From: a bacterium | GTDB lineage: Bacteria > Patescibacteriota > Microgenomatia > Daviesbacterales > UBA10151 | Direction of reading: 5' to 3' | DNA: 64,000 nucleotides | Assembly: GCA_021786315.1 (NCBI GenBank) | Contig: JAJYNN010000002.1 | Coordinates: 398,997 to 462,996, forward strand | Shown: positions 1 to 47,872 of the stretch, in pieces | How the letters are laid out: every line of letters starts with the position of its first letter | How positions within the stretch are numbered: the first letter of the stretch is position 1 | Made by a program: the position numbers and the translations under genes | Notes under the pieces: model-generated | What the model was told of the DNA's origin: nothing | The model's input: the letters and a program-made list of their open reading frames with translations, nothing else | Databases searched by the model: none

Positions 1-347
1 GGATGGTTTATTAGTATCGATACCGTCCAAACTACCAGTGGGTCCGATTCGATGGTGAGCCTGGCGGGCAATGTCGACTAATCCAGAATGGATCCAGCCA
101 TCTTCTTCGCTATAAGCTCCTACTAACTTTGCCCGATCGCTCATTTCGTTAATACCAAAATTATATCCGTAGTAAGCCAAAACCATCCTCAGTGAAGTTA
201 ACCCGCAAGCCTTGCGCCCGTAAAGGTTTAAGGCATCTTCTTCTTGTTGTGAATAATATGGAATTTGTAAATCCACTTTCGTTTTTGGCTCCTGCTGATC
301 TCTGCTTTCAGCTTCAAATTTCAGCATGTTTTTTTCTCTTTCTCCCA
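1..347 (-). CDS. Peptidase C39-like (papain-fold) domain protein, 5' part only; the gene runs off the window start.
   Basis: Minus-strand translation from ATG ~347 (alternative ATG ~327) gives MGEREKNMLKFEAE...YYSQQEEDALNLYGRKACGLTSLRMVLAYYGYNFG. The CG.tSL.MvLayyG pattern matches the catalytic Cys region of C39_2-type peptidases. This ORF is absent from the ORF track because it has no stop within the window. Confidence 0.4.
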
Positions 348-992: not shown

Positions 993-1001
993 GCGGATAT
1001 T

Positions 1002-1070
1002 ATAGGGCTACCTTTTGACTTCGTCAAAACGATCCTGTAATTTCTCCCCGCATTCGCGGTCGAAATTATA
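1002..1070. repeat. Two-hairpin short repeat, full copy A (intergenic)
   Basis: TATAGGGCTACCTT-TTGACTTCGTCAAA-ACGATCCTGTAATTTCTC-CCGCATTCGCGG-TCGAAATTATA. Confidence 0.75.
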
Positions 1071-14396: not shown

Positions 14397-14854
14397 CGAC
14401 AAAAAAAGAAAAGGGCTTCACCCTTGTAAGGCTACCTTCGCTTCGCGAACGATCTTGCAAGGGCTTTACCCTTGTGGAAGTGATGTTGGCGGTGGCGGCG
14501 GTTATCTTTTTAGGCTTTTTAGTTATGAGTCTGCCTTCGGCAATCTCTTCAATTAACCGGAGCAGGCACACTTCAATTGCAAAAGACATCGCCAGCCGTC
14601 AAATCGAAAAACTAAGAGAACAGACTTACGCTAATTTAGCCAACGGTACCAGCTCGTTTACCGATTCGGATTTGGATAGTCTGAATCAATCTTCTGCTTC
14701 CTACGAAATTGAAGACTGCCCCTCAAGTGTTTGTACGGACATTGGCGTTTATAAATTAAAACAGGTAAAAGCTTCAGTTTCTTGGAATGAATTAGGTGAT
14801 AATAAAAAAGTGGAGATGACTACACTTGTTGGTGAAGGAGGAATAGGACAATGA
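14393..14854 (+). CDS. Pseudopilin-like protein whose leader carries a repeat insertion that duplicates the KG|FTL site
   Basis: MTTKKEKGFTLVRLPSLRERSCKGFTLVEVMLAVAAVIFLGF. The RLPSLRERSC segment is encoded by hairpin 1 of the two-hairpin repeat. Confidence 0.5.
   Translation: MTTKKEKGFTLVRLPSLRERSCKGFTLVEVMLAVAAVIFLGFLVMSLPSAISSINRSRHTSIAKDIASRQIEKLREQTYANLANGTSSFTDSDLDSLNQSSASYEIEDCPSSVCTDIGVYKLKQVKASVSWNELGDNKKVEMTTLVGEGGIGQ
14428..14458. repeat. Two-hairpin repeat, partial copy E (hairpin 1 only) inside a pseudopilin leader, flanked by a 17-bp imperfect direct repeat
   Basis: AAGGGCTTCACCCTTGT-aAGGCTACCTTCGCTTCGCGAACGATCTTGC-AAGGGCTTTACCCTTGT. Confidence 0.6.
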
Positions 14855-24803: not shown

Positions 24804-24815
24804 GAAGGCATTATA

Positions 24816-27800
24816 TCAGGCTTGAGTTACGGTGAAGGTGACAGCGCCGCTTTGAGGATCGTACGTTACCGAGCTAAAGTGGCGGCCTTTTTCTTGGACT
24901 ATTTCTTTATATGCTGCAATCTTGTCCAAGTCTGTTTCGGTCAGCTTGTTTATTGAAACCGGGATTCTCAAAGTTCCGTTGGCGCCCAGAATGTTGTTTG
25001 TCATAGCGATTTTCATGCTTCCTGCCATCCGCTCATCCATGCCCTGCCAGTACCTGTCAGCATTGCCATTTCCGTTAATTCCTGCCTCTGGCTCGGTTAC
25101 TTCAGGAGAGGATAGCAGTTCCTTAATATCTGCCTGGGTCGATGTTCCGTTCTGCTTCGGAGGTGTTTTTGCTGACGGAGTACTTTGGGAATTATTTCCG
25201 GCCTCTTTTGCCTCAATTGCCCGTTGGATGTTACGGTCAGGCGTTCCATATTGCTGGTAGTGCTGGTAGGCATCGAAAAGCATTCTGGCAACTAACTTAA
25301 TTTGCATCTGGTTCAATAGCTTATTGTGCGATTCCAGTTGCAGATATTTCCCCAGATTCATTCCGTCAACATCTGTAAAGTCCGGCATTCTTAAATTAAG
25401 GTTGAGTACTTGTTCGGTGACTGGAAGGTGAGCATCTTCACCCGGCCTCAAAGATCTTTGGATCTCCGGCTCGAATAATTTGTAGAATTGGTCGCTGATT
25501 TTATAGTAGTTTTGAGAAAGGATATAAATCCTTTCAGCTACAGCGTTAGCTAAATCTTCTTCATTTTTGAAGTTTCCGCTTTTGCGGATGGAATCTGTAA
25601 GTGAACCCAGGGTGATGTCATTGTCCCCGGTGATTGTCCGTAAAACATTAATGTCGCTGACTGCGGTTTTGGCGGTAACTTCCGCTTCCCTGTCGGGAAT
25701 CAGCTGGTCATTGTCCTGGATCAACCCAAAAACCCTGGTTGTAACAGCATCTTCAAAACTACTCTCCAGCTCCTCAACTTTAGTTTCTTCTGCTATTGGC
25801 TGGTTATCTTCAATTGGTTGGGTATTCGCAAGGTTCTCGGTAGTTGTCTTTATAGGAGCTACCATTCGATCGTGATGGTCTGGATCAGGAGCATATTCAC
25901 CAATCTCCAATCCTCTCTTTTCTCTGGCGAGCATTCTATAAACTGCCATTACCTCCTTGTCGTATAAGGTGGGGTTATCAGGGCTTTTTGCATTGATCCA
26001 GGTAGCTCCGTTCTTTAGATCATTGTCAATGTTATCTAGGATTTGTTGCTCCACCTCTTCCCTGTCTCCTATGGCTTCAAAGTACTGTTCAACCAACTCT
26101 GCCTCGGAAAGATTATTTCCTATTTGGTCCGGAGCTGAATCTGCATCAATCTGTATGGATTCAGTCTGGTTCGGGTTAGAATTGGTTGGTCCAGGTTTTT
26201 GTATTGGGGCTATCATAAATTCTGGGTTGTTCGGGTCTGGTTTAAACTCTCCGATTTCTAACCCCCTTTTGTCTTTGGCCAGTTTTTGCACTGCAGCTAA
26301 TTGCTGTTTATCGTAGTCGGTTAGGTCGTCGCCATGTGCCGGTATGGAGATGGTTCCAGAGGCAACGGATTTGTCAATATTATCCAAAGCAAGAGTTTCA
26401 AACTCTTGCCGATTAGATCCAAGCAGATTATAAAATTGTTCGGCTAAGTCATTGTTTGTATCTTTAGAAGATGGATTGGTTGTTTCTGCTTGTTGTCCTG
26501 CTCTCTGTATCTTATCTGCTTCTTCTTGAGCATGATGTCTTTCGGTTTCGGGCTTATAACCCTGGTCTTTATTCGGTCCAAGCGGTTTTCTTGGCGCCAA
26601 AATAGTGGGAATAAATCCAGCTGCGGGATCAGAAGGACCGGCAATATTTGTGGGTATTGCATGAAGAATTGCATAACCAGGTGAATGGGTGGTGATAGTA
26701 TCTACACCCTGTCCGACGGAGGTGGCAACAATGGAGCGGCCTAAATTTCCGGCTGCATCATGCTCAACATGGGCAATCTCTACAAATTTCGCCAACTGGA
26801 CAACTTTGCCGTTCTCTACTTTAAAGAATTGGTTAAGGTCAGAACCGGAAGGAAGATTAATATGGCCATGGCTATCCTCACTAACTACCAATTTAATGAC
26901 ATCACGAGCCTGGTCGGCTGCATCATTGGGGGTAATTAAAATTTCGAAATTCTTGAAAGTTTTTACTCCGTCGGCTCCGGTTAAGATATCGTGGTTAATA
27001 TCCGTCGGCACGGTATTTTCCCGGATAACATTGGACATATCAATGTCTACTGTTCCGTCAGGGTTAGTGTTTAGCTGAAGCTGGAGCTCATCCCGGTCGT
27101 AGACGCCGGGAGTTCCGTTATCAATGAACCTGGTCCGGTGAGCCTTGTCCGCACTATCTTTGAAAGCATCCAAAGGGTTTTTGGTCTCCGTTTTTCCGGG
27201 GATTTCGGTGGTTGATGTATTAAAACCAGCGGCTTTGAGGTCGGACTGGAGTTTGTCAAAATCAGTCCCGGGAAGCTTGGATTGGTCAAAATCTATTTGG
27301 GCATCATTGCCAACGGTTCCGTGATACTCAACCCCGGTAGATTTATCAGTAAGCACTACCTCGTGGGTTTTCCCGATAACGGTAAGGTTCATCTTGTCGG
27401 TGGAGAAGCTTTCGGTGTTGCCGGAGGTAACAACTGTTTTAATATGGTCAGCGCTCAGCCCCGGGTTTTTGGGTGTCAACTCATGCGCTACATTGAGCCC
27501 GGCGCCGCCGATAAAATTTTGGACGGCGGCTGCTTCAGCAACGTTTGGCCGGCCAAATAAATTGCCGAGGTGTTTGGCGCCACTCTCCACCATTGTTTCG
27601 CCCATGTTTATCCCCAGGGCTCTGCCTCCTACAGCCATGACTTCCTGGGAAATCAATCCTCCCGCAAGACCCGAGATTGCTCCGAATGCCACTGCTTTTG
27701 CCGCTTCTGCCCGACGGTATTTATTAAAATTACTGGTTTGTTCTTGTTGGATATCAGCAAAGTTATTCCAGAACCTTTCATCTGCTTCTATCAACTTGCC

Positions 27801-29681
27801 TGTAATTTGTTCATCGGTTAACCCGGCACCTTTCAATTTTTCCTTGGCGATAACCTGGGCTTTAACAAGTTCCAGCTTTTCTACCTCAGTGGTGAACCGG
27901 TCAGAAAACTGGATTAAATCGACTTTATTGAGGATGCCGTAATCGATACGGGCGTCAATTTCGGCAACTTTTTCAATCAGCTTATTAATGGACAGCTCTG
28001 TAGAAAGGTCAGCATTTGTCAGTGTATCCAGTTCTGAAGATAAACCTTTGGCGGTAACCCTTTCCCCATCCTCTGAGATATTGAGGCGGAACTCATCAAG
28101 CTTAGCCCTTCTTTTGTCCGCCTTCCCTTTATCAGTTTTACCATAAGCACGGTCCCTTTCGTTAAGCTCAAAATCTCTTTTAAGGTCTGTCCATCGCCTG
28201 AGCCCGGCAAAAACTCCGCCTAGGGCTGCTCCAGCCAGAGGGAAACCTGTAGCTGCCTTTGATCCCCAGCCTAAAATCCCTTTTGCCCCAGCCCCGGCTG
28301 CCCCAAAAGCTACTCCAATAAAGAATGGGTTTGCCAGGAGTCCGCGGTATTGTCCTCCCTGCAGCCAGTTCATTGTCTTTTCCAGTTTTGAATAATCTGC
28401 CTCAGTAGTCGCGGCATTGATGGTTCGGGCAAATTGGAAATCCAATCTTTGGTCAAGGTTATCCAGTCCCTCAGTTCCCCGTTCGAAGGACAGCCGGATT
28501 TTTTGGGCAACCTCAAGAATATTGTTACCGATAAATTTAGCGTCTTTAATATAGGCTGCTACATCGGGGTTATTTTTAAGATCTTCGATCAGGGATTGAG
28601 ATTCACTGTTAAATTCATCAACCGTTATCTCTCCTTTGGTAAAACGGGTAATTAACCCGGAAACCTTATTATTAAACTCTGCATTTTCATACTTTGCGGA
28701 TTCTTCCTCTTTGTAAACCTTGCCTTCCGCAACCCGCTCCGCAACGCTGGTAGTTTGAAGTTTTTGTTTTTCCCGGGCGTCGTTTACTTCCTTCAAAGCG
28801 CCGGATAAAGAATCAATTTCGGTAAAGTAAATCCCGCTTTCAATTGCAGCCGCTTGGCATTGCTCAGCTTTAGTATATTTATAATATTGCTCCCCTAGCC
28901 TGAATTTTGCTGCCCTGAACCATTCCAGCGGGTTTAACCTGTTTTTAACATGCAGTTGTTCCCGGACATATTCCCCTGCCTGCTCCCGGGCCATCTTTTT
29001 GGCATCATCGTCGACATTGGCTACACCGATGGTATAACGCTCCACTGAAGACGGCGGTGTAGGTGGGGTTGGTGGAGGTGGGGTTGGCGGGGTTGGTGGA
29101 GGTGGCTCTTCATCCTTCGGAGGCACAAACAGCTCCCGGCGTTTTTTCAGGGTATCAATGGCAATTTCGACATTCTTGTTGTAATCTGGCGTGATTCGCC
29201 CGTCCATCCGCATACGGTAGATCTCTTCCCTTACCCTGGCTTGGTAATAACGGGGTACCCATCTCCAGGGTAAATCAAAGTAGTCCTTGGTATTTTTTCT
29301 TTGGGTTAAAGTCCGGAGTATATCCTGCAGCTCTTGGGCACGGGCCAAATCCTTATTTTTGCGCGCTTCTTTGTGTTGAGCTTCGAGATAGGTCAGCATT
29401 TCATCAACCGGGATTCCTTCTTTCTGCTCCTTGATGACTTTCCCTTTCTCATCTGCCAGTTCAAGTGTTTCCGTACCGTCGCCTCCAGCCTCCAGGTCGG
29501 CAATCCTGGTTTTTATGGTATCGAGTTCAATGCTCTGGGCTTTGGTTCTTTTGGCTTCGGGAATAGTTTCAAAAAGCGACACCCCGTTTTTAAGGGATTC
29601 CACTACCCTCTCGTGAGTTAACCTTTCTTTTCCCTTCGCAGCCTCAGGGGAGATGACAGAGATATCAGGGCTGGTGACCAT
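24816..29681 (-). CDS. Giant hypothetical protein (1621 aa) with a Pro/Thr linker, a Gly-rich hydrophobic segment and internal ~75-aa repeats
   Basis: Single uninterrupted ORF. Contains PPPPTPPTPPPPTPPTPP; GVAFGAAGAGAKGILGWGSKAATGFPLAGAALGGVFAGL; and the duplicated segments ...LAKDKRGLEIGEFKPDPNNPEFMIAPI... and ...LAREKRGLEIGEYAPDPDHHDRMVAPI.... No recognisable enzymatic motif. Confidence 0.6.
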   Translation of the reverse strand: MVTSPDISVISPEAAKGKERLTHERVVESLKNGVSLFETIPEAKRTKAQSIELDTIKTRIADLEAGGDGTETLELADEKGKVIKEQKEGIPVDEMLTYLEAQHKEARKNKDLARAQELQDILRTLTQRKNTKDYFDLPWRWVPRYYQARVREEIYRMRMDGRITPDYNKNVEIAIDTLKKRRELFVPPKDEEPPPPTPPTPPPPTPPTPPSSVERYTIGVANVDDDAKKMAREQAGEYVREQLHVKNRLNPLEWFRAAKFRLGEQYYKYTKAEQCQAAAIESGIYFTEIDSLSGALKEVNDAREKQKLQTTSVAERVAEGKVYKEEESAKYENAEFNNKVSGLITRFTKGEITVDEFNSESQSLIEDLKNNPDVAAYIKDAKFIGNNILEVAQKIRLSFERGTEGLDNLDQRLDFQFARTINAATTEADYSKLEKTMNWLQGGQYRGLLANPFFIGVAFGAAGAGAKGILGWGSKAATGFPLAGAALGGVFAGLRRWTDLKRDFELNERDRAYGKTDKGKADKRRAKLDEFRLNISEDGERVTAKGLSSELDTLTNADLSTELSINKLIEKVAEIDARIDYGILNKVDLIQFSDRFTTEVEKLELVKAQVIAKEKLKGAGLTDEQITGKLIEADERFWNNFADIQQEQTSNFNKYRRAEAAKAVAFGAISGLAGGLISQEVMAVGGRALGINMGETMVESGAKHLGNLFGRPNVAEAAAVQNFIGGAGLNVAHELTPKNPGLSADHIKTVVTSGNTESFSTDKMNLTVIGKTHEVVLTDKSTGVEYHGTVGNDAQIDFDQSKLPGTDFDKLQSDLKAAGFNTSTTEIPGKTETKNPLDAFKDSADKAHRTRFIDNGTPGVYDRDELQLQLNTNPDGTVDIDMSNVIRENTVPTDINHDILTGADGVKTFKNFEILITPNDAADQARDVIKLVVSEDSHGHINLPSGSDLNQFFKVENGKVVQLAKFVEIAHVEHDAAGNLGRSIVATSVGQGVDTITTHSPGYAILHAIPTNIAGPSDPAAGFIPTILAPRKPLGPNKDQGYKPETERHHAQEEADKIQRAGQQAETTNPSSKDTNNDLAEQFYNLLGSNRQEFETLALDNIDKSVASGTISIPAHGDDLTDYDKQQLAAVQKLAKDKRGLEIGEFKPDPNNPEFMIAPIQKPGPTNSNPNQTESIQIDADSAPDQIGNNLSEAELVEQYFEAIGDREEVEQQILDNIDNDLKNGATWINAKSPDNPTLYDKEVMAVYRMLAREKRGLEIGEYAPDPDHHDRMVAPIKTTTENLANTQPIEDNQPIAEETKVEELESSFEDAVTTRVFGLIQDNDQLIPDREAEVTAKTAVSDINVLRTITGDNDITLGSLTDSIRKSGNFKNEEDLANAVAERIYILSQNYYKISDQFYKLFEPEIQRSLRPGEDAHLPVTEQVLNLNLRMPDFTDVDGMNLGKYLQLESHNKLLNQMQIKLVARMLFDAYQHYQQYGTPDRNIQRAIEAKEAGNNSQSTPSAKTPPKQNGTSTQADIKELLSSPEVTEPEAGINGNGNADRYWQGMDERMAGSMKIAMTNNILGANGTLRIPVSINKLTETDLDKIAAYKEIVQEKGRHFSSVTYDPQSGAVTFTVTQA

Positions 29682-29686
29682 ATCTT

Positions 29687-30124
29687 TTAACTTCCGGCTG
29701 GTTGATTATCCGCTGGCTGGGGGGCTTCCGTTTGCGGAGCTGTTTGCTGGGTACCAGCTAGAAAATAAGTCCGGAAATCCACCAGGCTTTGCACAAACAC
29801 CTCTTTGGCATTAGGCAAATGGGCATTAATAAACTGCTCAATTTCCTCTTTATTTGTTGATGTCTGAATTACCTGAGTAAAAGCTTCCACGTCCTCCGGC
29901 TTCATATTTTCCATAGCATCGGCAATTAATTTCTTTTCCAGCCTTGTATAGAGGTCAAAAAGCATCGGCTCTTTCAATTCAGGTGTTAAAGTCATTCCGG
30001 CATCTTCCAGGATGTTTTCCAAAAACGCTCGAATATCCTGAGGAATCTCCGGCTGCCGGGTTGTTTCCTGTGTAGGTTGCGGTGTCGGTTGAGGAGCTGT
30101 CTGATTTGCTGTTTGGTTATCCAT
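29687..30124 (-). CDS. Hypothetical Q/P/T-rich protein, apparently co-transcribed upstream of the giant protein
   Basis: 145 aa; only a 6-nt gap to the downstream giant ORF. Confidence 0.45.
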   Translation of the reverse strand: MDNQTANQTAPQPTPQPTQETTRQPEIPQDIRAFLENILEDAGMTLTPELKEPMLFDLYTRLEKKLIADAMENMKPEDVEAFTQVIQTSTNKEEIEQFINAHLPNAKEVFVQSLVDFRTYFLAGTQQTAPQTEAPQPADNQPAGS

Positions 30125-30215
30125 TGCTCACCTTCCTTTCTTCTTGGATATATCCAGTATTTCATTTATTAATAAAAGTTGTCAATGACTTTTGGCTTGA
30201 AATATACTTAAATTA

Positions 30216-30995
30216 ATGGGATTTTCCGGGGTTATTTTAGCAGGCCTATTTTTATCAGAACTCTTTATCTTATTCTTTCTTTCTCGATTTTTAACCAAAT
30301 CACTCTCACGGGTTTTATATGCCGTGACCCGAAGCCGGAAAGTAACGGTCTATCTTCTGGCAATTATCTTTTTGCCGGGAACAATTATTCACGAGCTGGC
30401 CCACTTTTTATCTGCGGAGATGATGTTGGTGCCAACCGGAGATATTGATATTTTCCCGGAAATAGGGCTACCTTCCGACGTGCGTCGGAACGATCCTGTA
30501 ATTTCTCGAGGACTCGAAATTATTGAAGAAAAAAGTATTCGCTTGGGTAGTATCCAAGTTGGGCAAACTGATATGGTCAGAAGGTTTCTTATCGGTGTGG
30601 CACCCGTTGTTGTCGGGCTGGGTTTAATCTTTGGGGTTTTGTGGGTCATGCAGGAGCATCTTTTGGGAAGCTTGTCTTTTTGGCAACAGACGTTGGCTTT
30701 TTATACGGTTTTTGTGATTTCCAACAATATGTTTTCCAGTAAAAAGGACATGGAAGGGGCAGCAGCATTTTTAGTGGCAATATTTGCTGTCTCGGCTTTG
30801 GTTTTGGGAGTACTGTACTTTACCGGAAATCTTGATTTTGGATTTATTTTCCGGAAATTAGAAGCTTCGGAACTTGTAAATTTCTTTCAAAAGGTAGATC
30901 AGTTTTTGGTCGTTCCCTTAGGTTTGGATGTGGCAATTTTAGGATTGGCTACAGTTTTGACAGGGATAAGTCGAAAGGCAAAGAGCCTAATTTAA
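30216..30995 (+). CDS. Polytopic membrane protein with an HExxH motif (putative zinc metalloprotease-like) carrying an in-frame repeat insertion
   Basis: 259 aa. HELAH lies in a TM context. Residues 83-103 (IGLPSDVRRNDPVISRGLEII) are encoded by a full copy of the two-hairpin repeat. Confidence 0.5.
   Translation: MGFSGVILAGLFLSELFILFFLSRFLTKSLSRVLYAVTRSRKVTVYLLAIIFLPGTIIHELAHFLSAEMMLVPTGDIDIFPEIGLPSDVRRNDPVISRGLEIIEEKSIRLGSIQVGQTDMVRRFLIGVAPVVVGLGLIFGVLWVMQEHLLGSLSFWQQTLAFYTVFVISNNMFSSKKDMEGAAAFLVAIFAVSALVLGVLYFTGNLDFGFIFRKLEASELVNFFQKVDQFLVVPLGLDVAILGLATVLTGISRKAKSLI
30462..30524. repeat. Two-hairpin repeat, full copy B, in frame inside CDS 30216..30995
   Basis: ATAGGGCTACCTT-CCGACGTGCGTCGG-AACGATCCTGTAATTTCTC-GAGGACTC-GAAATTATT. 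Inserts 21 codons. Confidence 0.75.
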
Positions 30996-31163
30996 AGGCT
31001 GGAGAGAAGCGGGAGAAGTGAAAAAAGGATAATGGAAATTCCCCCAATTACCGATAAAACAATCCAAAAAACTTTAAATTTCTTTGAATACATGATTAAA
31101 AGTCCTAAGTACTAATTTCTAATTACTAAATAATTACAAAAACCCTAAGACAAGAACATTATA

Positions 31164-31526
31164 CTACGAAACTTTTTTATAAATCGAATTAAAGATTAAG
31201 TTTAATTCTTTGGCTTCGTTCCATAATTCTCGAGCTTCATCTTTAAGTTCTGGAATTGCGACTGCAATCATCCTAATGAAATGCTTTGCTTCATGAGACT
31301 CTTTTTTGCATATACCAATCTTATGCCTAAAGTCTACTTTACTTTCCGCATCATCTGCTTCACAATAATTTGCTCCTGCGCTAGTTGCACATTTTACTAA
31401 CTGATTTATTAGTGGGTCATTTAATGGGCTTCGTGGAATTTTTTGACAGAATTTAATTATTGACTCACCAAATTTAGCAGTTCTCTCTTCCAGATCAAAT
31501 CTCTTAGAACTTAGATCATTAGGCAT
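31164..31526 (-). CDS. Four-helix-bundle protein (23S rRNA intervening-sequence protein family, TIGR02436-like)
   Basis: 120 aa. Similar in pattern to IVS four-helix-bundle proteins (...CATSAGANYCEADDAESKVDFRHKIGICKKESHEAKHF...). Confidence 0.65.
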   Translation of the reverse strand: MPNDLSSKRFDLEERTAKFGESIIKFCQKIPRSPLNDPLINQLVKCATSAGANYCEADDAESKVDFRHKIGICKKESHEAKHFIRMIAVAIPELKDEARELWNEAKELNLIFNSIYKKVS

Positions 31527-31552
31527 TCTTTAGAAATTAGGTTAATTAGTAA

Positions 31553-32677
31553 TTACTTTCTTGTTAAACTTTCAACTTCTTCCAAAGCTGCTTTTCTTTT
31601 GGGATCCTCGAAATATTTTCTGGCTGGTTCCAATTTATTGATTAGCCATTCAGCTACGGCATTTTTTAAATCCATGGGGTGGAGTTTTTTCTCAGCATAA
31701 TCTTTCTCTAACTCTTCATAGGAAGTGTAAGTTAAATTCCCTCCAAACCTCTCCTCCCTTTTAACCACAAAAGAGGTGTTTAGTTCGTAAAAGATTAACC
31801 ATTTTGTCCAATCCAAAATGGGATTGAATTCAACCTCTCCCTCCGGCGCATAAGCGTGATTGATCTTTCTTTTGATTTCTTCCGGGGTATCGTTCATGTA
31901 AATACCGCTATCGGGTTTGGATTTGCTCATCTTGGCTGCCTCGAGATCCATTTCCTTACGGCCGGTTTCCGGGTTTTCAATTAGGGATGGTTGAAGAAGA
32001 CCTTGGAATAAATGGCCGTGAATAGTGATGGGCTTTTGAAAACCTAACTCATTGGCCGCATCCCGGGCAACGACATGGACATTCCTTTGGTCAGTTCCTG
32101 CCTGGGCAATGTTTACTTCCTGCATAAAGATATCCGCTGCCTGCATGGCCGGATAAATCAGCATGGCTGCATCGGAGACTTCGTTTTCCTTCCTTCCCAT
32201 GATAGTTGTGGAACGGATCATCCTGGATAATGAGGTAGCCTTGGCAACCCGGATAACGGTAGCCCAATAGCTTAAGCCTAATTTTTCATATAGTTCACTG
32301 CCTAGGACAAATTCTATCTTGTCAGGGTCGGCGCCCACACAAAGAGCGGCGGCCTTTAAAACTTCTTCCAGGTAGTCCCTTCCAAGCCTTTTGGCTGTTT
32401 CCAGCTTTCCGTCCAGCTTTTTATTTAACCAGGTGTGCCAATCAGCCAATAATATTGTGGTCTTTACTCCGGCTTCCTGCAGGTCTTTGATTTTGTGCAT
32501 AATGTAAAGTCCCTGGCCAATGTGTATTTTGCCTGAGACTTCGTAGCCGATGTAATGTTTCATGGTTTTGCCAGAGGCAATCAAATCCTCTAACTCTTCA
32601 GGGGTGATAACTTCCTCTAAGTTTCTGGTAATTAAATTAAATTTCTCTTCGTTGGTCATAAATTGATTATACACCAC
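31553..32677 (-). CDS. tyrS: Tyrosyl-tRNA synthetase, archaeal/eukaryal type
   Basis: 374 aa. HYIGYEVSGKIHIGQG (HIGH-like region) ...TILLADWHTWLN... KMSKSKPDSGIYMNDTPEEIKRKI (KMSKS). Strongly resembles archaeal TyrRS (for example the M. jannaschii [27 protein letters not shown] region). Confidence 0.8.
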   Translation of the reverse strand: MVYNQFMTNEEKFNLITRNLEEVITPEELEDLIASGKTMKHYIGYEVSGKIHIGQGLYIMHKIKDLQEAGVKTTILLADWHTWLNKKLDGKLETAKRLGRDYLEEVLKAAALCVGADPDKIEFVLGSELYEKLGLSYWATVIRVAKATSLSRMIRSTTIMGRKENEVSDAAMLIYPAMQAADIFMQEVNIAQAGTDQRNVHVVARDAANELGFQKPITIHGHLFQGLLQPSLIENPETGRKEMDLEAAKMSKSKPDSGIYMNDTPEEIKRKINHAYAPEGEVEFNPILDWTKWLIFYELNTSFVVKREERFGGNLTYTSYEELEKDYAEKKLHPMDLKNAVAEWLINKLEPARKYFEDPKRKAALEEVESLTRK

Positions 32678-32736
32678 AAAAAAACTGCCCGGCCAAAGCT
32701 ATGACCGGACAGTCTATTCAGAGGTTTTCATACCTT

Positions 32737-32967
32737 TTACTGGTTGTTTTCAACCGGCTGTTCCTCTGTTTTCGGCTGCTCTTCTCCAGCGGCTTCGGGA
32801 GCCTCTGCCTGAGGAGCTACTGCCTGAGAGTCAGTAGTCTCGGCGACTTGGCCTTCCTCTACTCCTCCGGCAACTGGTTGTACAGGTGCATCTACCGGGG
32901 CTACCGGAGCTACACCTTGACCCTGAGTTTGGTCCTGAGTGTTTTGATCATCCATGAAATTTCTCAC
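32737..32967 (-). CDS. Small acidic low-complexity protein (doubtful)
   Basis: 76-aa ORF, A/P/E/Q-rich, upstream of tyrS. No conserved motif. Confidence 0.2.
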   Translation of the reverse strand: MRNFMDDQNTQDQTQGQGVAPVAPVDAPVQPVAGGVEEGQVAETTDSQAVAPQAEAPEAAGEEQPKTEEQPVENNQ

Positions 32968-33080
32968 CCCCTCTCTTTTTGTGAAGTTCTAGACATGTTA
33001 AAGGAGAATTACAGGATTAGTCAACCCTGTCAATATTATTATAACTAATTTATTTAATATAGGTATATAGTTGTGCTAAG

Positions 33081-34916
33081 ATGAAGGGTATGCCACAAGA
33101 TCAAAAATCTCCAATGTCGAAAAAAACCAAGTTCAGAGAGACGATGTTAGTCTCAGCAAAATTGTTGGGTTTTGTCTGGGAAGTTGACCGGCTGCTTTTT
33201 GTGGGCAACCTGGTGGCAATGATCGTGCCTCCGGCAATCTCCTTTATTAACGCCTATCTTTTTAAGTTAACAATCGATTTGGTGGTTAAAAGCGTTTCCG
33301 GAGGGAATTTTGATGTTGGCAGGCTTTATTATTTGCTGGCATTAATTGCTGTTGCTTCCTTTGCCCGGGAAATATCCTATGTCTTTCAGGATTACGTAGT
33401 GAAGGCGCTTTATTTAAAGATGCCGTTAACTTTATACCAAAAGGTACTTACCAAGATTGCCTCGTTAGACCTGCAGTACTTTGAGGATGATAAATTCCGT
33501 GACCGGTTACAAAAAGTCAGGGAAAATTACGACCACCGCCCCCTGGGAATGCTGCAGAACTTGTTCCTCTTGATCCAAAGCGTGGTCCAGATGCTTATAG
33601 CCTTAGCGGCGATTCTAAAACTCAGTCCGTTTTTGGCTATCCTGCTTCTGGTGGTCTCGGTCCCGGATTTTGTTAACCGGATCTACTTCTCCAAGTTTAC
33701 CTGGTGGATCTGGAGTGAACGCGCGCCTTACCGGAAGAAATATATCTATATTACTGAGCTGATCCAAAAGAATGAAAGCGTTAAAGAGTTAAAGATCTTC
33801 CAATTGGGCAAGAGATTTCTCCACGAACTTTCCTCAATCCAGGAAGAGTTTTACCACACCAATATTAAAGTGGCCCGCCAGCAAATGGGGGTTAATTCTA
33901 TCTTTGGATTTTTGGACAGCGTGGTAATGACCGGAGTTTTGGGGTATGTGGTTTTACAGGCCTTTGTCAAAAAGATTACCGTCGGAGACATCACTTTTTA
34001 TTTTCAGGTGGTCAACAACTTTAACCAGGGTTTAGGAGGATTATTCCGGACAGCCAGCCGGGTTTTTGAGGATAGCCTTTATGTCAAAGAGGTATTTGAT
34101 CTATTGGATGTCGAACCAAAGATTGTTCCCGCGGAAAATCCGGTGAAGATTGATTACAACAAAGCCCCGAAAGTGGAGTTTAAAAACGTCACTTTTGCTT
34201 ATCCGGGAACTACCAGGAAAGTATTTCAGGACTTTTCCCTGGTTATTAACCCTGGAGAAAAGATTGCTTTGGTCGGAGAAAACGGTGCCGGAAAGACGAC
34301 TCTAATTAAGCTTTTGTCCCGTTTTTATGATGTTGACGGGGGAGAGATTTTAGTTGACGGCATTAATATTAAGAATTTAGATTTGGACACCTGGTACAAG
34401 ACTATCGGAATCTTGTTCCAGGACTTTGTCCGTTATGAATATTCAGCCAAGGATAATATCTATTTTGGTAAGGCTTGGGAAAAGGAGGATCTGGAGGGAA
34501 TTGTTGATGCTGCCCGTTCTGCCGGGGCCCACGAGATGATCCATAAGTTTGATGCCGAATACGAACAGATGTTGGGGCGGACTTTTGAGGGCGGAATGGA
34601 ACTCTCCGGCGGCCAATGGCAAAAGGTGGCCTTGTCCCGGGCTTTCTTCCGTAATGCCCCAATCCTGGTTTTGGATGAACCGACTGCGGCCATTGATGCC
34701 AAGGCGGAATCAGAAATCTTTAACCGGGTGGAAAAACTTTCCAAGGATAAAACGGTCATTATTATCTCCCACCGCTTTTCTACCGTCCGCAATGCTGACA
34801 AAATTTATGTTGTGGAAAATGGAAAGATTACTGAATCCGGTGACCACAAAGAATTAATGAAGTTAAACGGCCAATACGCCAACCTCTTTAATCTCCAGGC
34901 AAAAGGTTATCAGTAA
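33081..34916 (+). CDS. ABC exporter, fused permease and ATP-binding protein (MsbA/MdlB-like)
   Basis: 611 aa. Six TM helices, Walker A GENGAGKTTL, signature LSGGQWQKVALSRA, Walker B ILVLDEPTAAID. Confidence 0.85.
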   Translation: MKGMPQDQKSPMSKKTKFRETMLVSAKLLGFVWEVDRLLFVGNLVAMIVPPAISFINAYLFKLTIDLVVKSVSGGNFDVGRLYYLLALIAVASFAREISYVFQDYVVKALYLKMPLTLYQKVLTKIASLDLQYFEDDKFRDRLQKVRENYDHRPLGMLQNLFLLIQSVVQMLIALAAILKLSPFLAILLLVVSVPDFVNRIYFSKFTWWIWSERAPYRKKYIYITELIQKNESVKELKIFQLGKRFLHELSSIQEEFYHTNIKVARQQMGVNSIFGFLDSVVMTGVLGYVVLQAFVKKITVGDITFYFQVVNNFNQGLGGLFRTASRVFEDSLYVKEVFDLLDVEPKIVPAENPVKIDYNKAPKVEFKNVTFAYPGTTRKVFQDFSLVINPGEKIALVGENGAGKTTLIKLLSRFYDVDGGEILVDGINIKNLDLDTWYKTIGILFQDFVRYEYSAKDNIYFGKAWEKEDLEGIVDAARSAGAHEMIHKFDAEYEQMLGRTFEGGMELSGGQWQKVALSRAFFRNAPILVLDEPTAAIDAKAESEIFNRVEKLSKDKTVIIISHRFSTVRNADKIYVVENGKITESGDHKELMKLNGQYANLFNLQAKGYQ

Positions 34917-34920
34917 TATA

Positions 34921-35673
34921 TTACAGAGAGTTTTTAATTACTTGAGCCCAGAGTTGGTAACCCTTGTCTGAGGGGTGGAAGAAATCGGAAGAATACAAGC
35001 CTTGGTCGTTCTTCATGGAAGCTTGGGTAGAAGTATATAGATCGATTAACTGCAGATTATTTTTTTCGGCCAAACTTTTAATAGCTTCATTATATTTTTG
35101 AGTTCTGTAATCCACTAAATAGTTAAAGGGCGGAAGAAGTGTTTTTGATCCTAGATATGGCAAATTAATCAAGACAATTTTGGCTTGGTTATTAGTTTTT
35201 AATCCAGAGATAATTTCCTGGTAGTTTTTCTTAAAATTGTTTAGACTTTCAAAGTTATGTAGATCGTTTATACCAATAAAGATAGTAATTACAGTGGTTA
35301 AATGTGGATTTTTGGCTGGGGAAATATTTGTTTTGGCTAGATTTATTTGAGAGTTTAAGACATCTGCAGTAGTGGCCTGGGGCTGGCCAAAATTATTCAG
35401 GACGACTGACTCATATCTTTTCGCTAAACTTTGGGCAATAAGAACAGGGAAAGGCTTCATATGATCAGAAGCACCAATACCTGCAGTCAGGCTGTCTCCT
35501 AAGGCAATATAGACTAAGGTGTTTTCTCTCCCCTGCCCTTCAAAAACATAATATGTTTGATTTGGGTTAGTTAAAGGATGTGATCCGAGATAGTCATAAT
35601 AATAAGCATAGGATCGGTTGAAATAAAGAAAAACTAAACCGGCAATAATGATTGCGTAAATGAGCAGACGCAT
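34921..35673 (-). CDS. SGNH/GDSL-family hydrolase with N-terminal membrane anchor
   Basis: 250 aa. GDSLTAG block I, FIGINDL block III, and a DxxH-like C-terminal block (FHPSDKGY). Confidence 0.6.
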   Translation of the reverse strand: MRLLIYAIIIAGLVFLYFNRSYAYYYDYLGSHPLTNPNQTYYVFEGQGRENTLVYIALGDSLTAGIGASDHMKPFPVLIAQSLAKRYESVVLNNFGQPQATTADVLNSQINLAKTNISPAKNPHLTTVITIFIGINDLHNFESLNNFKKNYQEIISGLKTNNQAKIVLINLPYLGSKTLLPPFNYLVDYRTQKYNEAIKSLAEKNNLQLIDLYTSTQASMKNDQGLYSSDFFHPSDKGYQLWAQVIKNSL

Positions 35674-35749
35674 AGATTTAATATACTATATTTAAATGTC
35701 CTTGACGCACTTTTAGTTTCTCCCTTACAATATATCGTTGGAAAAAGTT

Positions 35750-35789
35750 TATAGGGCTACCTTCGCTTCGCGAACGATCCTGTATTATA
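35750..35789. repeat. Two-hairpin repeat, short copy D (hairpin 1 plus truncated core) 10 bp upstream of the atpB start
   Basis: TATAGGGCTACCTT-CGCTTCGCG-AACGATCCTGTA-TTATAA. Confidence 0.7.
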
Positions 35790-35799
35790 AAAATGTCAT

Positions 35800-36537
35800 A
35801 TGAATATTGAATTAGCAGCAGAACAAATTGGTCACATCGGTGCTTTGCCGGTTACTAACACCATGCTGATGAGCTGGGTGGTAACGGCAATCTTGAGTAT
35901 TACCGCCATTATCGTTTCCCGGAAAGTTACCCTTGTTCCGGCAGGATTACAAAACTTTTTTGAATTTGTTATTGAATATGCCTACAACATGACTGAAGAA
36001 TTGGCTCACTCCAAAGCCAAGGTATTTTTCCCGTTTATCATGACCTTCTTCCTTTTCATTATCACTTCCAACTGGCTGGGGCTTTTGCCTGGATTCGGAA
36101 CTATTGGTTTTAATGAGATTAAGGATGGCAAGGAAACTTTCATTCCCCTGCTCCGCTCCATTAACGCCGACCTGAATATGACTTTGTCCCTGGCTTTAGT
36201 CTCAGTAATAGTTACCCACTTTTTTGCGGTTAGATACTTAGGAATTAAAGATTATTTAAAGAAATGGTTTGCTTTAAACCCCATTTTTCTATTTGTTGGC
36301 CTTTTAGAGTTGGTGGGAGAAGTTACTAAAGTAGTCTCGCTTTCCTTTCGGCTTTTTGGTAATATATTTGCGGGCGAAGTTGTACTGGCAACAATTGCCG
36401 GTATTTTTGCTTTTGTGGCACCTCTCCCCTTCTATTTCTTGGAAATTATTGTGGGGTTTGTACAGGCAGCAGTCTTTATGATGCTTACCTTAACGTTTAT
36501 GGTGCTTTTAACGGAAAAACATGGTGAGGAGCATTAG
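35800..36537 (+). CDS. atpB: F-type ATP synthase F0 subunit a
   Basis: 245 aa. SLSFRLFGNIFAGEVVL contains the conserved Arg of subunit a. Confidence 0.85.
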   Translation: MNIELAAEQIGHIGALPVTNTMLMSWVVTAILSITAIIVSRKVTLVPAGLQNFFEFVIEYAYNMTEELAHSKAKVFFPFIMTFFLFIITSNWLGLLPGFGTIGFNEIKDGKETFIPLLRSINADLNMTLSLALVSVIVTHFFAVRYLGIKDYLKKWFALNPIFLFVGLLELVGEVTKVVSLSFRLFGNIFAGEVVLATIAGIFAFVAPLPFYFLEIIVGFVQAAVFMMLTLTFMVLLTEKHGEEH

Positions 36538-46028: not shown

Positions 46029-47807
46029 GTGTTGTCATCACTCAGGCGTCGGTTCCAAGTACCAAGTCTTCTGGGCAGGTATTGGCGAATCCTCAAGCCA
46101 TTTCGGGGAGTTTATACAAAGTGTATCTTACTTCTTTTGGCTTACGAAGGTATCCAAATCCTAGGGTCTTACCAGATGAGCATGATGATCAGGCTCTTTG
46201 GAGATAAGGCCAACTACTGGTGGTGGGTGCTCTTTTTTGTCGGGTTGGTAATCTACGATGAAACGTTCATCCGGTTAGACAACCTGCTGGATTGGCACAT
46301 CATCATCAGGCAGAACTATCCCCTATACCGTTATTTGAAGCTGGGGGCCATCAAAAAGTTCCTGCAAATGGACATTGATTGGCACCAGAAACACAATAGC
46401 GGAGCCTTGGTGGGCAAGGTTGCCCAGGGCGTGGAAAAGGTTGAGGACATTATGGGTATGATCTGGATAGAGTTTATACCAACAACTATCCAGGCTGTCT
46501 TTTCCCTAATTCCTCTTCTCTTTATCTCACCGCTCGCAGTGGCGATCTCGGCACTTTCTTTCCTGTTGTTTGTCAGGTTCAGCCTAAAAAACAACAAAGA
46601 AAGAAGACCGTCCAAGGAAAGGCGGTTTGACCTTTACGAGACGGAATGGCATCGCTCGATTGAGATCGTCCAGTCGGTGGAAACCAACTATATGTTTGGC
46701 CAGACTGACAGGTTGATCAATGAGCAGGCAGATCTTCACCAGGAAATCATGGATATAGGCAGGAAGGAGGCACATCGCGGGATATACCACTACAACAGGC
46801 TTGAGCTACGGATTATCCGTTTTGCCCGGGTGGCAATCCTGGGAATCTGGGGGTACCAACTAATCAATGGAGGTATGGATATTCCTACTCTCATCTTTGT
46901 CTACACGCTAACCGAAAGGCTCTTTTCTAGTTTTTGGAGGTTCTCCAGACTCATTGAAAAGACATCGGAATCAGCAGAAGGGGCAAACAGATTGGCCAAT
47001 CTCCTCGAAGAGGAAACAGGCCATGAAGCGGAAGGTGAGGTTACCACGCCCAAAACTCAACCCGTGGGGGTCGAGTTGAAAGGGGTCCGTTTCACTTACA
47101 AAAAGGAATACGACGAGGAGCAAGACGGATTACATGATGTAACTCTGGATATTCCTGCAGGAAGCGTAGTGGCACTGGTTGGCCCATCAGGTGCCGGGAA
47201 GACGACAATTCGGAAAATTGTCACCGGTCTGATGGAAATCCAAGGAGGAGATATTCGTGTTGGAGGTGTAAGTGTTAAGGACTGGGACCCGGAGAAGCTG
47301 TTGGAGCAATTCTCATATGTTCCTCAAGGGGACGACGTGTTCTTATTCAACGGAACCGTCAGGGACAATATTGCCTTTGCTAGGCCCAAAGCTTCTATGG
47401 AGGAAGTTGAAAGGGCGGCGGTATTGGCAGGTATCCATGACTTTATTATGTCCATGGCAGAAGGTTACGAGACCGTCGTTGGTGAACGCGGAAAAAGGCT
47501 ATCAGGAGGACAAAAGCAAAGAGTAGCACTGGCACGGGCAATCCTAGCTGATCGGCCAGTCCTTATCTTGGACGAAGCCACAAGTGCAGTGGATGCTATT
47601 ACTGAGGAGGAAATCCAACAAAAAATGGCGGAAATTCTCCATGGAAAAACCTCCATCATTATTGCCCATAGACTTTCCACTGTTTGGGACATTGCGAATA
47701 AAATCGTTGTTCTGGAACGTGGTCGAAAAGTCGAAGAGGGCACGCATGCCGAATTGATGGCGTTAAATGGTCTCTACAGCAAAATGGCGCTGTTGCAGAC
47801 CAAATAG
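46029..47807 (+). CDS. ABC exporter, fused permease and ATP-binding protein
   Basis: 592 aa. GTG start after AAAGGAGG. Walker A GPSGAGKTT, signature LSGGQKQRVALARA, Walker B LILDEATSAVD. The stop codon is supplied by the first bases of a repeat copy. Confidence 0.85.
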   Translation: MLSSLRRRFQVPSLLGRYWRILKPFRGVYTKCILLLLAYEGIQILGSYQMSMMIRLFGDKANYWWWVLFFVGLVIYDETFIRLDNLLDWHIIIRQNYPLYRYLKLGAIKKFLQMDIDWHQKHNSGALVGKVAQGVEKVEDIMGMIWIEFIPTTIQAVFSLIPLLFISPLAVAISALSFLLFVRFSLKNNKERRPSKERRFDLYETEWHRSIEIVQSVETNYMFGQTDRLINEQADLHQEIMDIGRKEAHRGIYHYNRLELRIIRFARVAILGIWGYQLINGGMDIPTLIFVYTLTERLFSSFWRFSRLIEKTSESAEGANRLANLLEEETGHEAEGEVTTPKTQPVGVELKGVRFTYKKEYDEEQDGLHDVTLDIPAGSVVALVGPSGAGKTTIRKIVTGLMEIQGGDIRVGGVSVKDWDPEKLLEQFSYVPQGDDVFLFNGTVRDNIAFARPKASMEEVERAAVLAGIHDFIMSMAEGYETVVGERGKRLSGGQKQRVALARAILADRPVLILDEATSAVDAITEEEIQQKMAEILHGKTSIIIAHRLSTVWDIANKIVVLERGRKVEEGTHAELMALNGLYSKMALLQTK

Positions 47808-47872
47808 GGCTACCTTCGGCTTCGCCGAACGATCCTGTAATTTCTCTCCGCCAAAAGCGGATCGAAATTATG
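47805..47872. repeat. Two-hairpin repeat, full copy C; its first bases form the stop codon of the ABC exporter
   Basis: ATAGGGCTACCTT-CGGCTTCGCCG-AACGATCCTGTAATTTCTC-TCCGCCAAAAGCGGA-TCGAAATTATG. Confidence 0.75.

What the first reader, a model, noticed from the sequence alone, without database searches (positions are those of the whole stretch)
30462..30524. Repeat copy inserted in-frame inside a membrane HExxH protein, adding a 21-residue loop
The full two-hairpin element lies within CDS 30216..30995. It begins exactly at a codon boundary and is 63 nt long, so the frame is kept. It encodes IGLPSDVRRNDPVISRGLEII, about 20 residues after the HELAH motif. The host protein has therefore tolerated or exploited a MITE-like insertion as a peptide segment.
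Basis: seen in the sequence. Interest (0 to 1): 0.6.

Follow-up and report, generated by a model that had tools for sequence, protein, structure and literature searches.

The report
Structured repeat inserted in-frame in protease gene
A copy of a small, hairpin-forming repeat that is scattered through this tiny (candidate-phyla-radiation) bacterial genome has landed inside a membrane metalloprotease-like gene without breaking the reading frame, adding 20 amino acids to a loop. This is a known kind of event (as in Rickettsia), but the repeat family itself seems not to have been described.

Summary
A covariance model of the repeat hits 30460-30506 (+) at 61.8 bits, E 5e-15, inside the intact CDS 30216-30995. 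The window has exactly five copies, all on the + strand. Between invariant P81 and G111, 117 of 119 homologs have 9 residues and the window protein has 29. The net insertion is therefore 20 aa (60 nt), not 21 (63 nt). Three syntenic orthologs read CCN-NAR-ATT at the empty site, and the 40 kb around them carries no copy. The peptide is thus derived, not ancestral. AlphaFold places the insert at the tip of a beta-hairpin between TM2 (HELAH) and TM3, with pLDDT 51-59 against 86.6 overall. Independent assemblies give the identical gene.

"MITE-like" is not supported, because there are no terminal inverted repeats and at most an AT junction homology. The element is a modular structured repeat. Module A has strong covariation and invariant G-U pairs, so it is strand-specific. 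Module B is a second hairpin. Related metagenome copies are almost all intergenic, in sense orientation, and end at the downstream start codon (for example five in one ribosomal-protein operon). Rfam has no match. Translation of the insert is inferred, and "exploited" has no evidence. The closest analogue is the Rickettsia palindromic elements.

The parts
30216..30995 (+). Host CDS, 259 aa. It is a multi-pass membrane protein with HExxH in TM2 and is distantly Peptidase_M50B-like.
   Evidence: ORF. There are 253 homologs at E<=1e-3, mostly 215-235 aa, from Patescibacteria, Daviesbacteria and Microgenomates. Five of 30 homologs hit PF13398 and one hits PF02163; the window protein itself has no Pfam hit. 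AF2 mean pLDDT is 86.6.
30390..30404 (+). HELAH motif (residues 59-63) near the end of TM2.
   Evidence: Read from the sequence. H59, E60 and H63 are invariant in 120 sequences.
30462..30523 (+). Intragenic copy of the repeat (62-nt consensus span). The net inserted DNA is 60 nt, encoding a 20-aa block that can be read either as IGLPSDVRRNDPVISRGLEI or, shifted by one residue, as GLPSDVRRNDPVISRGLEII.
30460..30506 (+). Module A. Outer stem AUAGGG (30462-30467) pairs with UCCUGU (30494-30499). The internal loop is CUAC.C / C.GA. The inner hairpin is UUCCGAC-GUGC-GUCGGAA (30473-30490).
   Evidence: CM hit of 61.8 bits, fold, covariation.
30498..30523 (+). Module B (hairpin 2): GUAAUUUC-UCGAGGACUC-GAAAUUAU. 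The loop contains the Shine-Dalgarno-like GAGGA.
   Evidence: RNAalifold consensus of 7 full copies gives an 8-bp basal stem.
1000..1070 (+). Full copy, intergenic between two minus-strand genes (321-992 and gyrB 1083-3041), so antisense to both.
   Evidence: Three Logan assemblies break inside it at position 1031.
14424..14465 (+). Half copy (module A only), in-frame in the leader of pilin-like CDS 14393-14854. It reads KGFTLV[RLPSLRERSCKGFTLV]EVML and is flanked by a 17-nt direct repeat.
   Evidence: The N_methyl Pfam match falls on the second KGFTLVE.
35749..35790 (+). Half copy, intergenic, 10 nt upstream of atpB-like CDS 35800-36537, in sense orientation.
47802..47871 (+). Full copy. Its TAG (in ATAGGG) is the stop codon of ABC-transporter CDS 46029-47807.

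Best explanation
A member of a dispersed, modular, hairpin-forming repeat family of Microgenomates-type CPR bacteria was copied into the loop-coding part of a Peptidase_M50B-like membrane protein gene. Module A is an irregular helix of about 17-20 bp with a conserved internal loop, and module B is a second hairpin.

The inserted DNA is 60 nt, lies in the sense orientation, and is read in one of the two stop-free frames of the element. The gene therefore stays open. The protein most likely carries 20 extra hydrophilic residues at the tip of the beta-hairpin between TM2 (HExxH) and TM3, where length variation is tolerated.

Shown: the copy is a bona fide family member. It is absent from all homologs, including syntenic orthologs. 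The frame and all invariant residues are intact. The family has a strand-specific conserved secondary structure and is normally intergenic and sense-oriented, ending at the start codon of the next gene.

Inferred: the insert is translated rather than removed, it is neutral or tolerated, and the element spreads by a DNA-level copying mechanism that remains unknown (no TIR or TSD, and no transposase in the window).
For: Family membership and copy number.

Structure: 93% of cells are paired versus 78% in shuffles. The covariation score is 0.414 versus 0.108, reached by 0 of 500 shuffles. Sliding the 3' partners gives 43-53% paired. Pair 9-46 is GC in 13 sequences and AU in 10, with none unpaired. 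G-U pairs 7-48 and 11-44 are invariant. In copies not ascertained by the search pattern, the C.C mismatch is lost on both sides together or converted to G-C.

Insertion is derived: alignments A1 and A4, the spacing count, synteny, the empty-site codons, and no element in 40.6 kb of the three syntenic loci with filters off.

Loop location: hydropathy and the AF2 model, with strands E74-78 and E112-115 flanking residues of pLDDT 51-59. P0048 has +7 aa at the same site.

Not an artefact: identical sequence in independent assemblies.

Frames: frames 1 and 3 of the element are open and frame 2 has TAG and TAA. The second intragenic copy (pilin) uses the same frame 1.

Precedent: in-frame intragenic copies of Rickettsia palindromic elements and ERIC are reviewed in PMC10969869.
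Against: - There is no transcript or peptide evidence, so translation of the insert is inference.
- The nearest homolog is only about 50% identical, so the insertion cannot be dated and no insert-free close strain was seen.
- The intragenic copy keeps a perfect structure (second-best CM score in the window). This means either a recent insertion or continuing RNA-level constraint, which a purely 'tolerated peptide' reading does not explain.
- The mobility mechanism is unknown.
- Only 2 of 32 copies examined are intragenic, so in-frame insertion is an exception here, not a habit as in Rickettsia.
Confidence: 0.75

Rival explanations
1. The element acts at the RNA level inside the gene. In its normal context it is a sense-strand cassette in the 5'-UTR or between cistrons: a structured helix followed by a hairpin that displays a Shine-Dalgarno-like loop and ends at the AUG. 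The intragenic copy would then create an internal processing site or an internal translation start (GAGGA at 30509-30513, then in-frame AUU AUU at 30519-30524). The gene would be down-regulated or expressed in two pieces, and the extra loop would be a by-product.
For: - Orientation: 20-21 of 24 non-intragenic copies that have a called downstream gene are co-oriented with it, usually 10-42 nt from module A.
- Locus L160 has five sense copies between cistrons (rpsD|rpoA, rpsM|rpsK, adk|map, secY|adk, and before rpsQ).
- Hairpin-2 loops of the gene-abutting copies carry AGGA or AAGGT and are followed by ...AAATTATG.
- Invariant G-U pairs make the fold specific to the sense strand.
- The intragenic copy is structurally perfect.
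- RNase III is encoded in the window at 21142-21828.
Against: - AUU is a poor start codon.
- There is no experimental evidence that the element is processed.
- In the window all five copies share the DNA strand (+) and one (1000-1070) is antisense to both neighbours. The orientation bias could therefore follow replication or ssDNA transposition rather than transcription.
- Copies in this genome other than 30462 lack an SD-like loop.
Confidence: 0.15
2. The 20-residue peptide is ancestral to the protein family and the dispersed repeats derive from it.
For: None found. The only support is that the peptide reads as a plausible loop.
Against: None of 119 homologs has the segment. Three syntenic orthologs show a clean empty site. 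Related copies are intergenic in many unrelated loci and keep a covarying RNA-type structure rather than a coding pattern.
Confidence: 0.01
3. The insert is not part of the mature protein. It would be removed from the mRNA (intron-like) or skipped by the ribosome, as in T4 gene 60 or the mitochondrial 'byp' elements, using the GAA AU repeats at 30459-30463 and 30516-30520 as take-off and landing sites.
For: A direct repeat GAAAT flanks most of the element, and a stable hairpin follows the putative take-off codon.
Against: Both intragenic copies are multiples of 3 (60 nt and 48 nt) and stop-free in the host frame, which removal would not require. No stop codon follows the take-off site. No known intron or ribozyme family matches.
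Confidence: 0.03
4. The gene is a recently disrupted pseudogene, or the insertion is an assembly chimera caused by the repeat.
For: Repeats do break short-read assemblies here: the copy at 1000-1070 ends three Logan contigs.
Against: The ORF is full-length and keeps all 17 family-invariant residues. Independent assemblies from different runs read through the insert identically. The hairpin-1 sequence of this copy is unique in the window.
Confidence: 0.04

Closest known systems
Rickettsia palindromic elements (RPE; Ogata et al. 2000, as reviewed in PMC10969869)
   Same: Both are dispersed palindromic repeats whose copies can sit in-frame inside unrelated protein-coding genes. They add a peptide segment that orthologs lack, always read in a compatible frame, at sites compatible with the protein fold.
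   Different: RPEs are about 100-150 bp, belong to Rickettsia, and in several families about half or more of the copies are intragenic. This element is 40-70 nt and modular (module A alone, or A plus B). It is found in CPR/Microgenomates-type genomes. It is overwhelmingly intergenic and sense-oriented next to start codons, with only 2 of 32 copies examined intragenic. Sequence relatedness to RPEs was not tested.
REP/BIME elements with RAYT (Y1) transposases
   Same: Both are short imperfect palindromes with conserved non-palindromic flanking nucleotides. They are strand-specific, occur between genes of operons, and combine in modules. One inverted pair is seen here, at L161 1749-1801 (-) and 1827-1876 (+).
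   Different: REPs are extragenic by definition and have a 5' GT[A/G]G tetranucleotide. Here GGCUAC lies 5' of the hairpin on the structured strand. No Y1 transposase is encoded in the window. The Y1_Tnp gene found in a syntenic relative (L168) is flanked by a different hairpin, TTCCCAC..GTGGGAA.
Pneumococcal BOX / RUP / SPRITE and enterobacterial ERIC elements
   Same: Both are small modular structured repeats that are transcribed with neighbouring genes and form stable RNA hairpins. Occasional intragenic in-frame copies are known (ERIC, BOX; PMC10969869).
   Different: The taxa and sequences differ. BOX has an A-B-C module order and no fixed relation to start codons. ERIC is about 127 bp with inverted-repeat ends.
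Neisseria Correia elements (MITE)
   Same: Both are multi-copy, often lie next to gene starts, can alter expression, and are candidate RNase III substrates.
   Different: Correia elements have 26-bp terminal inverted repeats and a TA target duplication. Neither is present here.

Membership tests
MITE | Terminal inverted repeats | tested here: not met
   The first 14 nt compared with the reverse complement of the last 14 nt match at only 3-5 of 14 positions in the three full copies.
MITE | Target-site duplication flanking each copy | tested here: inconclusive
   Comparison with the orthologs' empty site leaves only an AT dinucleotide shared at both junctions. The 5' AT is also part of the conserved outer stem. 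The 17-nt repeat around the pilin copy may predate the insertion.
MITE | Short, non-coding, multi-copy and dispersed | tested here: met
   Five copies in 64 kb. Thirty CM hits at E<=0.01 in the fetched loci: about 25 confident copies in metagenome contigs (L159 duplicates L138), plus L121, which is the window's own intragenic copy re-fetched, and four weak hits below 27 bits (L146:3539, L147, L161:1749, L008).
MITE | Cognate autonomous IS with the same ends | not testable with these tools
   No transposase domain was found among the window ORFs scanned. The rest of the 0.94-Mb genome could not be fetched.
Rickettsia palindromic elements | In-frame intragenic copies adding a peptide absent from orthologs | tested here: met
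   A second case lies in the pilin leader.
Rickettsia palindromic elements | About 100-150 bp element encoding a conserved peptide of about 30-50 aa, with a high intragenic fraction | tested here: not met
   The element is 40-70 nt. The peptide differs between copies because the hairpin length shifts the frame. Only 2 of 32 copies are intragenic.
Rickettsia palindromic elements | Sequence homology to RPE-1..10 | not tested
The host is a CPR bacterium, not Rickettsia.
REP / RAYT system | Conserved GT[A/G]G 5' of an imperfect palindrome | tested here: not met
   On the structured strand the invariant flank is GGCUAC 5' of the hairpin. Its complement, GUAGCC, lies 3' of the hairpin on the other strand.
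REP / RAYT system | Associated Y1 (RAYT) transposase gene flanked by the repeats | not testable with these tools
   None is present in the window. The Y1_Tnp gene in relative L168 has unrelated flanking hairpins that are absent from the window.
Any Rfam RNA family | Match to a curated covariance model | tested here: not met
   The gathering-threshold scan of the whole window gave only a tRNA. Permissive scans of two copies gave nothing for the window copy and only chance-level hits (E of 3 or more) for the L160 copy.
Peptidase M50B-like membrane metalloprotease (host protein) | HExxH inside a transmembrane helix plus conserved downstream acidic motif | tested here: met
   H59, E60, H63, D119, N170 and D178 are invariant in 120 sequences. 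HELAH lies in helix 41-69.
Peptidase M50B-like membrane metalloprotease (host protein) | Pfam PF13398 match above the gathering score | tested here: not met
   There is no Pfam hit for the window protein, with or without the insert. Five of 30 homologs match PF13398 (best E 9.4e-7). Foldseek against the PDB gave nothing significant.

The most novel reading that the evidence does not exclude
The repeat is an undescribed, mobile 'portable 5'-UTR' RNA cassette of CPR bacteria. Module A would be a protein- or RNase-recognised helix. Module B would be a hairpin that presents the Shine-Dalgarno sequence and ends at the start codon. The copy inside the M50B-like gene would then be functional at the RNA level, as an internal processing site or an internal initiation site that splits or regulates the protease, rather than a passively tolerated peptide.
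Probability: 0.12. Interest if true: 0.7.

Novelty: new member of a known kind. Interest (0 to 1): 0.42.

Why it matters
In-frame 'exonisation' of selfish or structured repeats is one route by which proteins gain new loops. It is best documented in Rickettsia. Finding it in a streamlined CPR genome of about 0.94 Mb shows the process also operates where intergenic space is scarce: three of the five copies in this window touch coding sequence.

The check also uncovered a repeat family that seems not to have been described. It has clear covariation, is absent from Rfam, and sits in sense orientation directly before start codons of housekeeping genes, including ribosomal-protein operons, in related uncultivated bacteria. 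That makes it a candidate cis-acting RNA element or a candidate substrate for an unknown mobility system, in a lineage where gene regulation is almost unstudied. It also breaks short-read assemblies and can mislead gene callers.

Tried and rejected
- The genome-contig scan with GGCTACCTTN{6,24}AACGATC was too loose.
- I searched for other proteins carrying the element-encoded peptide. A 41-aa concatenate found only a spurious 57-aa ORF over the intergenic copy in L153.
- The viral-contig scan gave 0 hits.
- Rfam gave no family.
- By eye, and from my own knowledge of the motifs, the element is not a K-turn because the bulged strand has CC where G.A is required. It is not a hammerhead because it has CUGUAA, not CUGAUGA.
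- Foldseek of the AF2 model against the PDB gave no match with E<=0.001.
- Deleting the insert did not rescue a Pfam hit for the host protein.
- The apparent intragenic hit in L147 (24.7 bits) lies in a spurious ORF antisense to another 104-aa ORF (not scanned; possibly a toxin) and is probably chance.
- The Y1 transposase in syntenic relative L168 is not linked to this element. Its flanking hairpins differ and are absent from the window, and the window ORF 32701-33048 at the same position is unrelated.
- Extending the window by 10 kb on the left (L162) gave no further copy. The right-hand contig did not extend beyond the window.
- The organism name could not be recovered.

Full report

They lie inside the only long ORF there, 30216-30995 (+, 259 aa).

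The window contains related sequences. Pattern searches and reading the sequence gave full two-hairpin copies at about 1000-1070 and 47802-47871, and one-hairpin 'half' copies at 14424-14465 and 35749-35790.

I built a covariance model (R1) from 24 copies and ran it without filters over both strands of the window. It returns exactly these five, all on the + strand, at 48-67 bits (E 4e-11 to 2e-16). The next best hit scores 11 bits. The intragenic copy is the second best, at 61.8 bits.

**2. Is it an insertion, and how long is it?**

The protein has 253 homologs at E<=1e-3, mostly 215-235 aa. The named ones come from Patescibacteria, Microgenomates and Daviesbacteria MAGs.

- In a 30-sequence alignment, every homolog has a gap of 20 columns opposite IGLPSDVRRNDPVISRGLEI.
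- In a 120-sequence alignment, the distance between the invariant P81 and G111 is 9 residues in 117 homologs, 10 in one, 16 in one, and 29 in the window protein.
- Three homologs are positional orthologs: P0005, P0011 and P0003. Their loci keep the order RecG, giant protein, DUF5663, this gene, class-I tRNA synthetase, ABC transporter, (ATP synthase), which matches window 22788-36537.
- At the insertion point these orthologs read CCN-NAR-ATT-(GAT/ACT). The window reads CCG GAA [60 nt] ATT GAA GAA.

The repeat consensus spans 30462-30523 (62 nt), of which an AT dinucleotide is shared with the host sequence.

With filters off, R1 finds no copy in the 40.6 kb of these three syntenic loci.

The gene with its insert is identical (0 mismatches) in Logan assemblies of two other sequencing runs, so it is not an assembly chimera.

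**3. Where does the insert fall in the protein?**

Hydropathy places the insert (residues 83-102/103) in the hydrophilic stretch 66-119, between TM2 (43-65, carrying HELAH at 59-63) and TM3 (120-147).

An AlphaFold2 model built from alignment A1 has mean pLDDT 86.6 and pTM 0.78. Strands at 74-78 and 112-115 flank the insert, and pLDDT falls to 51-59 over residues 81-110. Part of that drop is expected, because no homolog covers the insert.

All 17 columns that are invariant across 120 sequences are intact in the window protein, including H59, E60, H63, D119, N170 and D178. One homolog (P0048) has +7 residues at the same place, so the hairpin tip tolerates length change.

From the positive-inside rule (five K/R residues in loop 28-42), the loop is probably extracytoplasmic. 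This is inference only.

The family is only distantly Peptidase_M50B-like. Five of 30 homologs match PF13398, and the window protein does not, with or without the insert. Foldseek against the PDB gave nothing.

**4. What is the repeat?**

A metagenome scan with GGCTACCTTN{6,24}AACGATCYTGYA returned 39 loci, about 22 of them true relatives. R1 then found further copies in those loci that the pattern had not selected.

*Module A* folds as follows:
- An outer stem, (U)AUAGGG with UCCUGU(A).
- An internal loop with invariant GGCUAC...GAUC.
- A single C-G pair and a C.C mismatch.
- An inner hairpin whose sequence and length vary freely while staying complementary.

On the named structure, 93% of cells pair, against 78% after shuffling and 43-53% when partners are slid by 1-3 columns. 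The covariation score is 0.414 against 0.108, reached by 0 of 500 shuffles. Pair 9-46 is G-C in 13 sequences and A-U in 10, with no exception, and the search pattern did not constrain this. Two G-U pairs are invariant, so the fold exists on one strand only. In copies not ascertained by the pattern, the C.C mismatch is either deleted on both sides together (L160:13887, L146:3539) or turned into G-C (L160:8117).

*Module B* is a second hairpin with basal stem GUAAUUUC/GAAAUUAU and a variable top. It is absent from the half copies.

There are no terminal inverted repeats (3-5 of 14 matches). Rfam gives no match at gathering or permissive thresholds. IMG/VR viral contigs hold no copy. No transposase domain was found among the window ORFs scanned. 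I found no paper describing such an element in CPR bacteria in the held library.

**5. Normal genomic context of the family**

Of the roughly 27 hits examined in the related loci, none is convincingly inside a gene. The one apparent case, L147, is a weak hit in a spurious ORF.

Copies are usually co-oriented with the gene that follows. This holds for 20 of 24 non-intragenic copies with a called downstream gene. One of the four exceptions (L144) is an ORF-calling artefact, because an 86-aa thioredoxin-like ORF starts at the element's end.

In L160, five sense copies fill spacers of the ribosomal-protein/alpha operon: rpsD|rpoA, rpsM|rpsK, adk|map, secY|adk, and upstream of rpsQ. L146 has copies before the L2 and L22 genes.

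In these copies the element ends ...AAAUUAUG, with the AUG serving as the start codon. The loop of hairpin 2 often carries AGGA or AAGGU.

In the window itself all five copies share the + strand, but one (1000-1070) is antisense to both neighbours. The data therefore cannot separate an orientation rule tied to transcription from one tied to the DNA strand or to replication.

**6. Other coding contacts in this window**

The half copy at 14424 is in-frame in the leader of a pilin-like gene, which reads MTTKKEKGFTLV[RLPSLRERSCKGFTLV]EVML... It uses the same element frame as the protease copy. The Pfam N_methyl match falls on the second KGFTLVE. It is flanked by a 17-nt direct repeat. Several paralogous pilins also have a KGF(S/T)...KGFTL pseudo-repeat in their leaders, so that repeat may predate the insertion. 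This is unresolved.

The copy at 47802 supplies the TAG stop codon of ABC transporter 46029-47807.

Three of the five copies thus touch coding sequence in this compact genome.

**7. Mechanism**

*Best-supported reading (confidence about 0.75).* A DNA-level copy of the element landed in the hairpin-tip codons. It survived because it is 60 nt, is read in one of the element's two stop-free frames (frame 2 has TAG and TAA), and encodes a hydrophilic G/P/D/N/R-rich stretch. It is translated as an extra 20-residue loop. The survival-filter logic and the translation are inferred. Everything else in this reading is shown by the results above.

*Main rival (about 0.15).* The element is functional RNA, and the intragenic copy affects the mRNA through processing or through an internal start at GAGGA-N5-AUU. 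This would explain why the copy is structurally perfect.

*Minor rivals.*
- Removal of the insert or ribosomal bypass (about 0.03). It is disfavoured because both intragenic copies are multiples of three and stop-free.
- Pseudogene or assembly artefact (about 0.04).
- Ancestral peptide (about 0.01, effectively refuted).

**8. Comparison with known systems**

In behaviour, the finding is the RPE phenomenon: palindromic repeats inserted in-frame in genes (PMC10969869). The element is not an RPE by size, modularity, taxon or usual location. It fails the MITE criteria (no TIR, no clear TSD). It lacks the REP GTAG geometry and any RAYT link. Its modularity recalls BOX and BIME elements.

I file it as a new member of the general kind 'small structured dispersed bacterial repeats with occasional in-frame intragenic copies'.

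**9. Verdict**

The event itself is of a known type. The repeat family is apparently new and well supported by covariation, and it is the more interesting object. Interest 0.42.

Noticed in passing
window 14393-14854 (element half copy at 14424-14465): This is a second in-frame intragenic copy. Module A sits in the leader peptide of a pilin-like gene and duplicates the prepilin motif KGFTLV, flanked by a 17-nt direct repeat AAGGGCTTYACCCTTGT. Paralogous pilins (ORFs at 11584, 12811, 14851, 11045) also have KGF(S/T)...KGFTL pseudo-repeats. The 11045 leader DNA contains CGAAGATCCTGTCAA, which resembles the element's 3' part. Older decayed copies, or a pre-existing duplication, may be involved.
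   Followed up: partly
window 47802-47871 and CDS 46029-47807: The TAG inside the element's ATAGGG start serves as the stop codon of an ABC-transporter gene, so the repeat defines that protein's C-terminus.
   Followed up: partly
window 1000-1070; loci L162, L163, L164: Three independent Logan short-read assemblies all end at window position 1031. This is inside the repeat, at the 18-mer ACGATCCTGTAATTTCTC shared by three copies. On the reverse strand this copy gives CCCTATAAT seven bases before the ATG of gene 321-992 (-), which looks like a -10 box placed for a leaderless transcript.
   Followed up: partly
L160 (metagenome contig Ga0163150_10006595) 4545-13952; L146: In a related AT-rich organism the element fills five spacers of the ribosomal-protein/alpha operon, all in sense orientation, each ending at the next gene's start codon. 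AGGA or AAGGT often sits in the hairpin-2 loop. It may be an intercistronic processing or translation-initiation cassette.
   Followed up: partly
L161 1749-1801 (-) and 1827-1876 (+); L160 13887-13952: L161 holds an inverted pair of copies 26 nt apart, in a BIME-like arrangement. There is also a subtype with a 26-nt extra hairpin inserted in the apical loop (TAAGCA[A/G]AGCTTGTCT...).
   Followed up: no
L168 5504-6163 (syntenic relative carrying ortholog P0003): A 219-aa Y1_Tnp (IS200/RAYT-type) gene lies between the tRNA synthetase and ABC-transporter genes. It is flanked on both sides by direct copies of a different hairpin, GTATTCC(C/T)AC..GTGGGAAGCT. This hairpin is absent from the window. 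It shows that hairpin-dependent ssDNA transposition systems exist in this lineage.
   Followed up: partly
window 24816-29681 (-): A 1621-aa ORF has no Pfam hit. It contains a proline-rich PPPPTPPTPPPPTPPTPP tract and internally repeated segments (...RGLEIGEFKPDPNNPEFMIAPIQ / ...RGLEIGEYAPDPDHHDRMVAPIK). Syntenic relatives have equally large, unannotated proteins at this position (2023 aa and 2434 aa).
   Followed up: no
window 31164-31526 (-); L162 5168-5542: Four-helix-bundle '23S rRNA intervening sequence protein' (bAvd-like) genes are present. One lies directly downstream of the host gene. Another lies next to a phage-integrase-family gene just outside the window. A link to diversity-generating retroelements was not examined.
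   Followed up: no
window 50512-57672 (-) and 35800-41918 (+): The window holds a complex-I-like / group-4 hydrogenase-like membrane module (Complex1_30kDa/49kDa, Proton_antipo_M, NADHdh, Oxidored_q6) and a full F-type ATP synthase operon. This is notable for a CPR-type genome of about 0.94 Mb.
   Followed up: no
window 21080-21130 and 31088-31138: A 51-nt AT-rich direct repeat (71% identical) lies next to the rpsP-RNase III spacer and next to the spacer after the host gene. Its significance is unknown and it is possibly chance.
   Followed up: no
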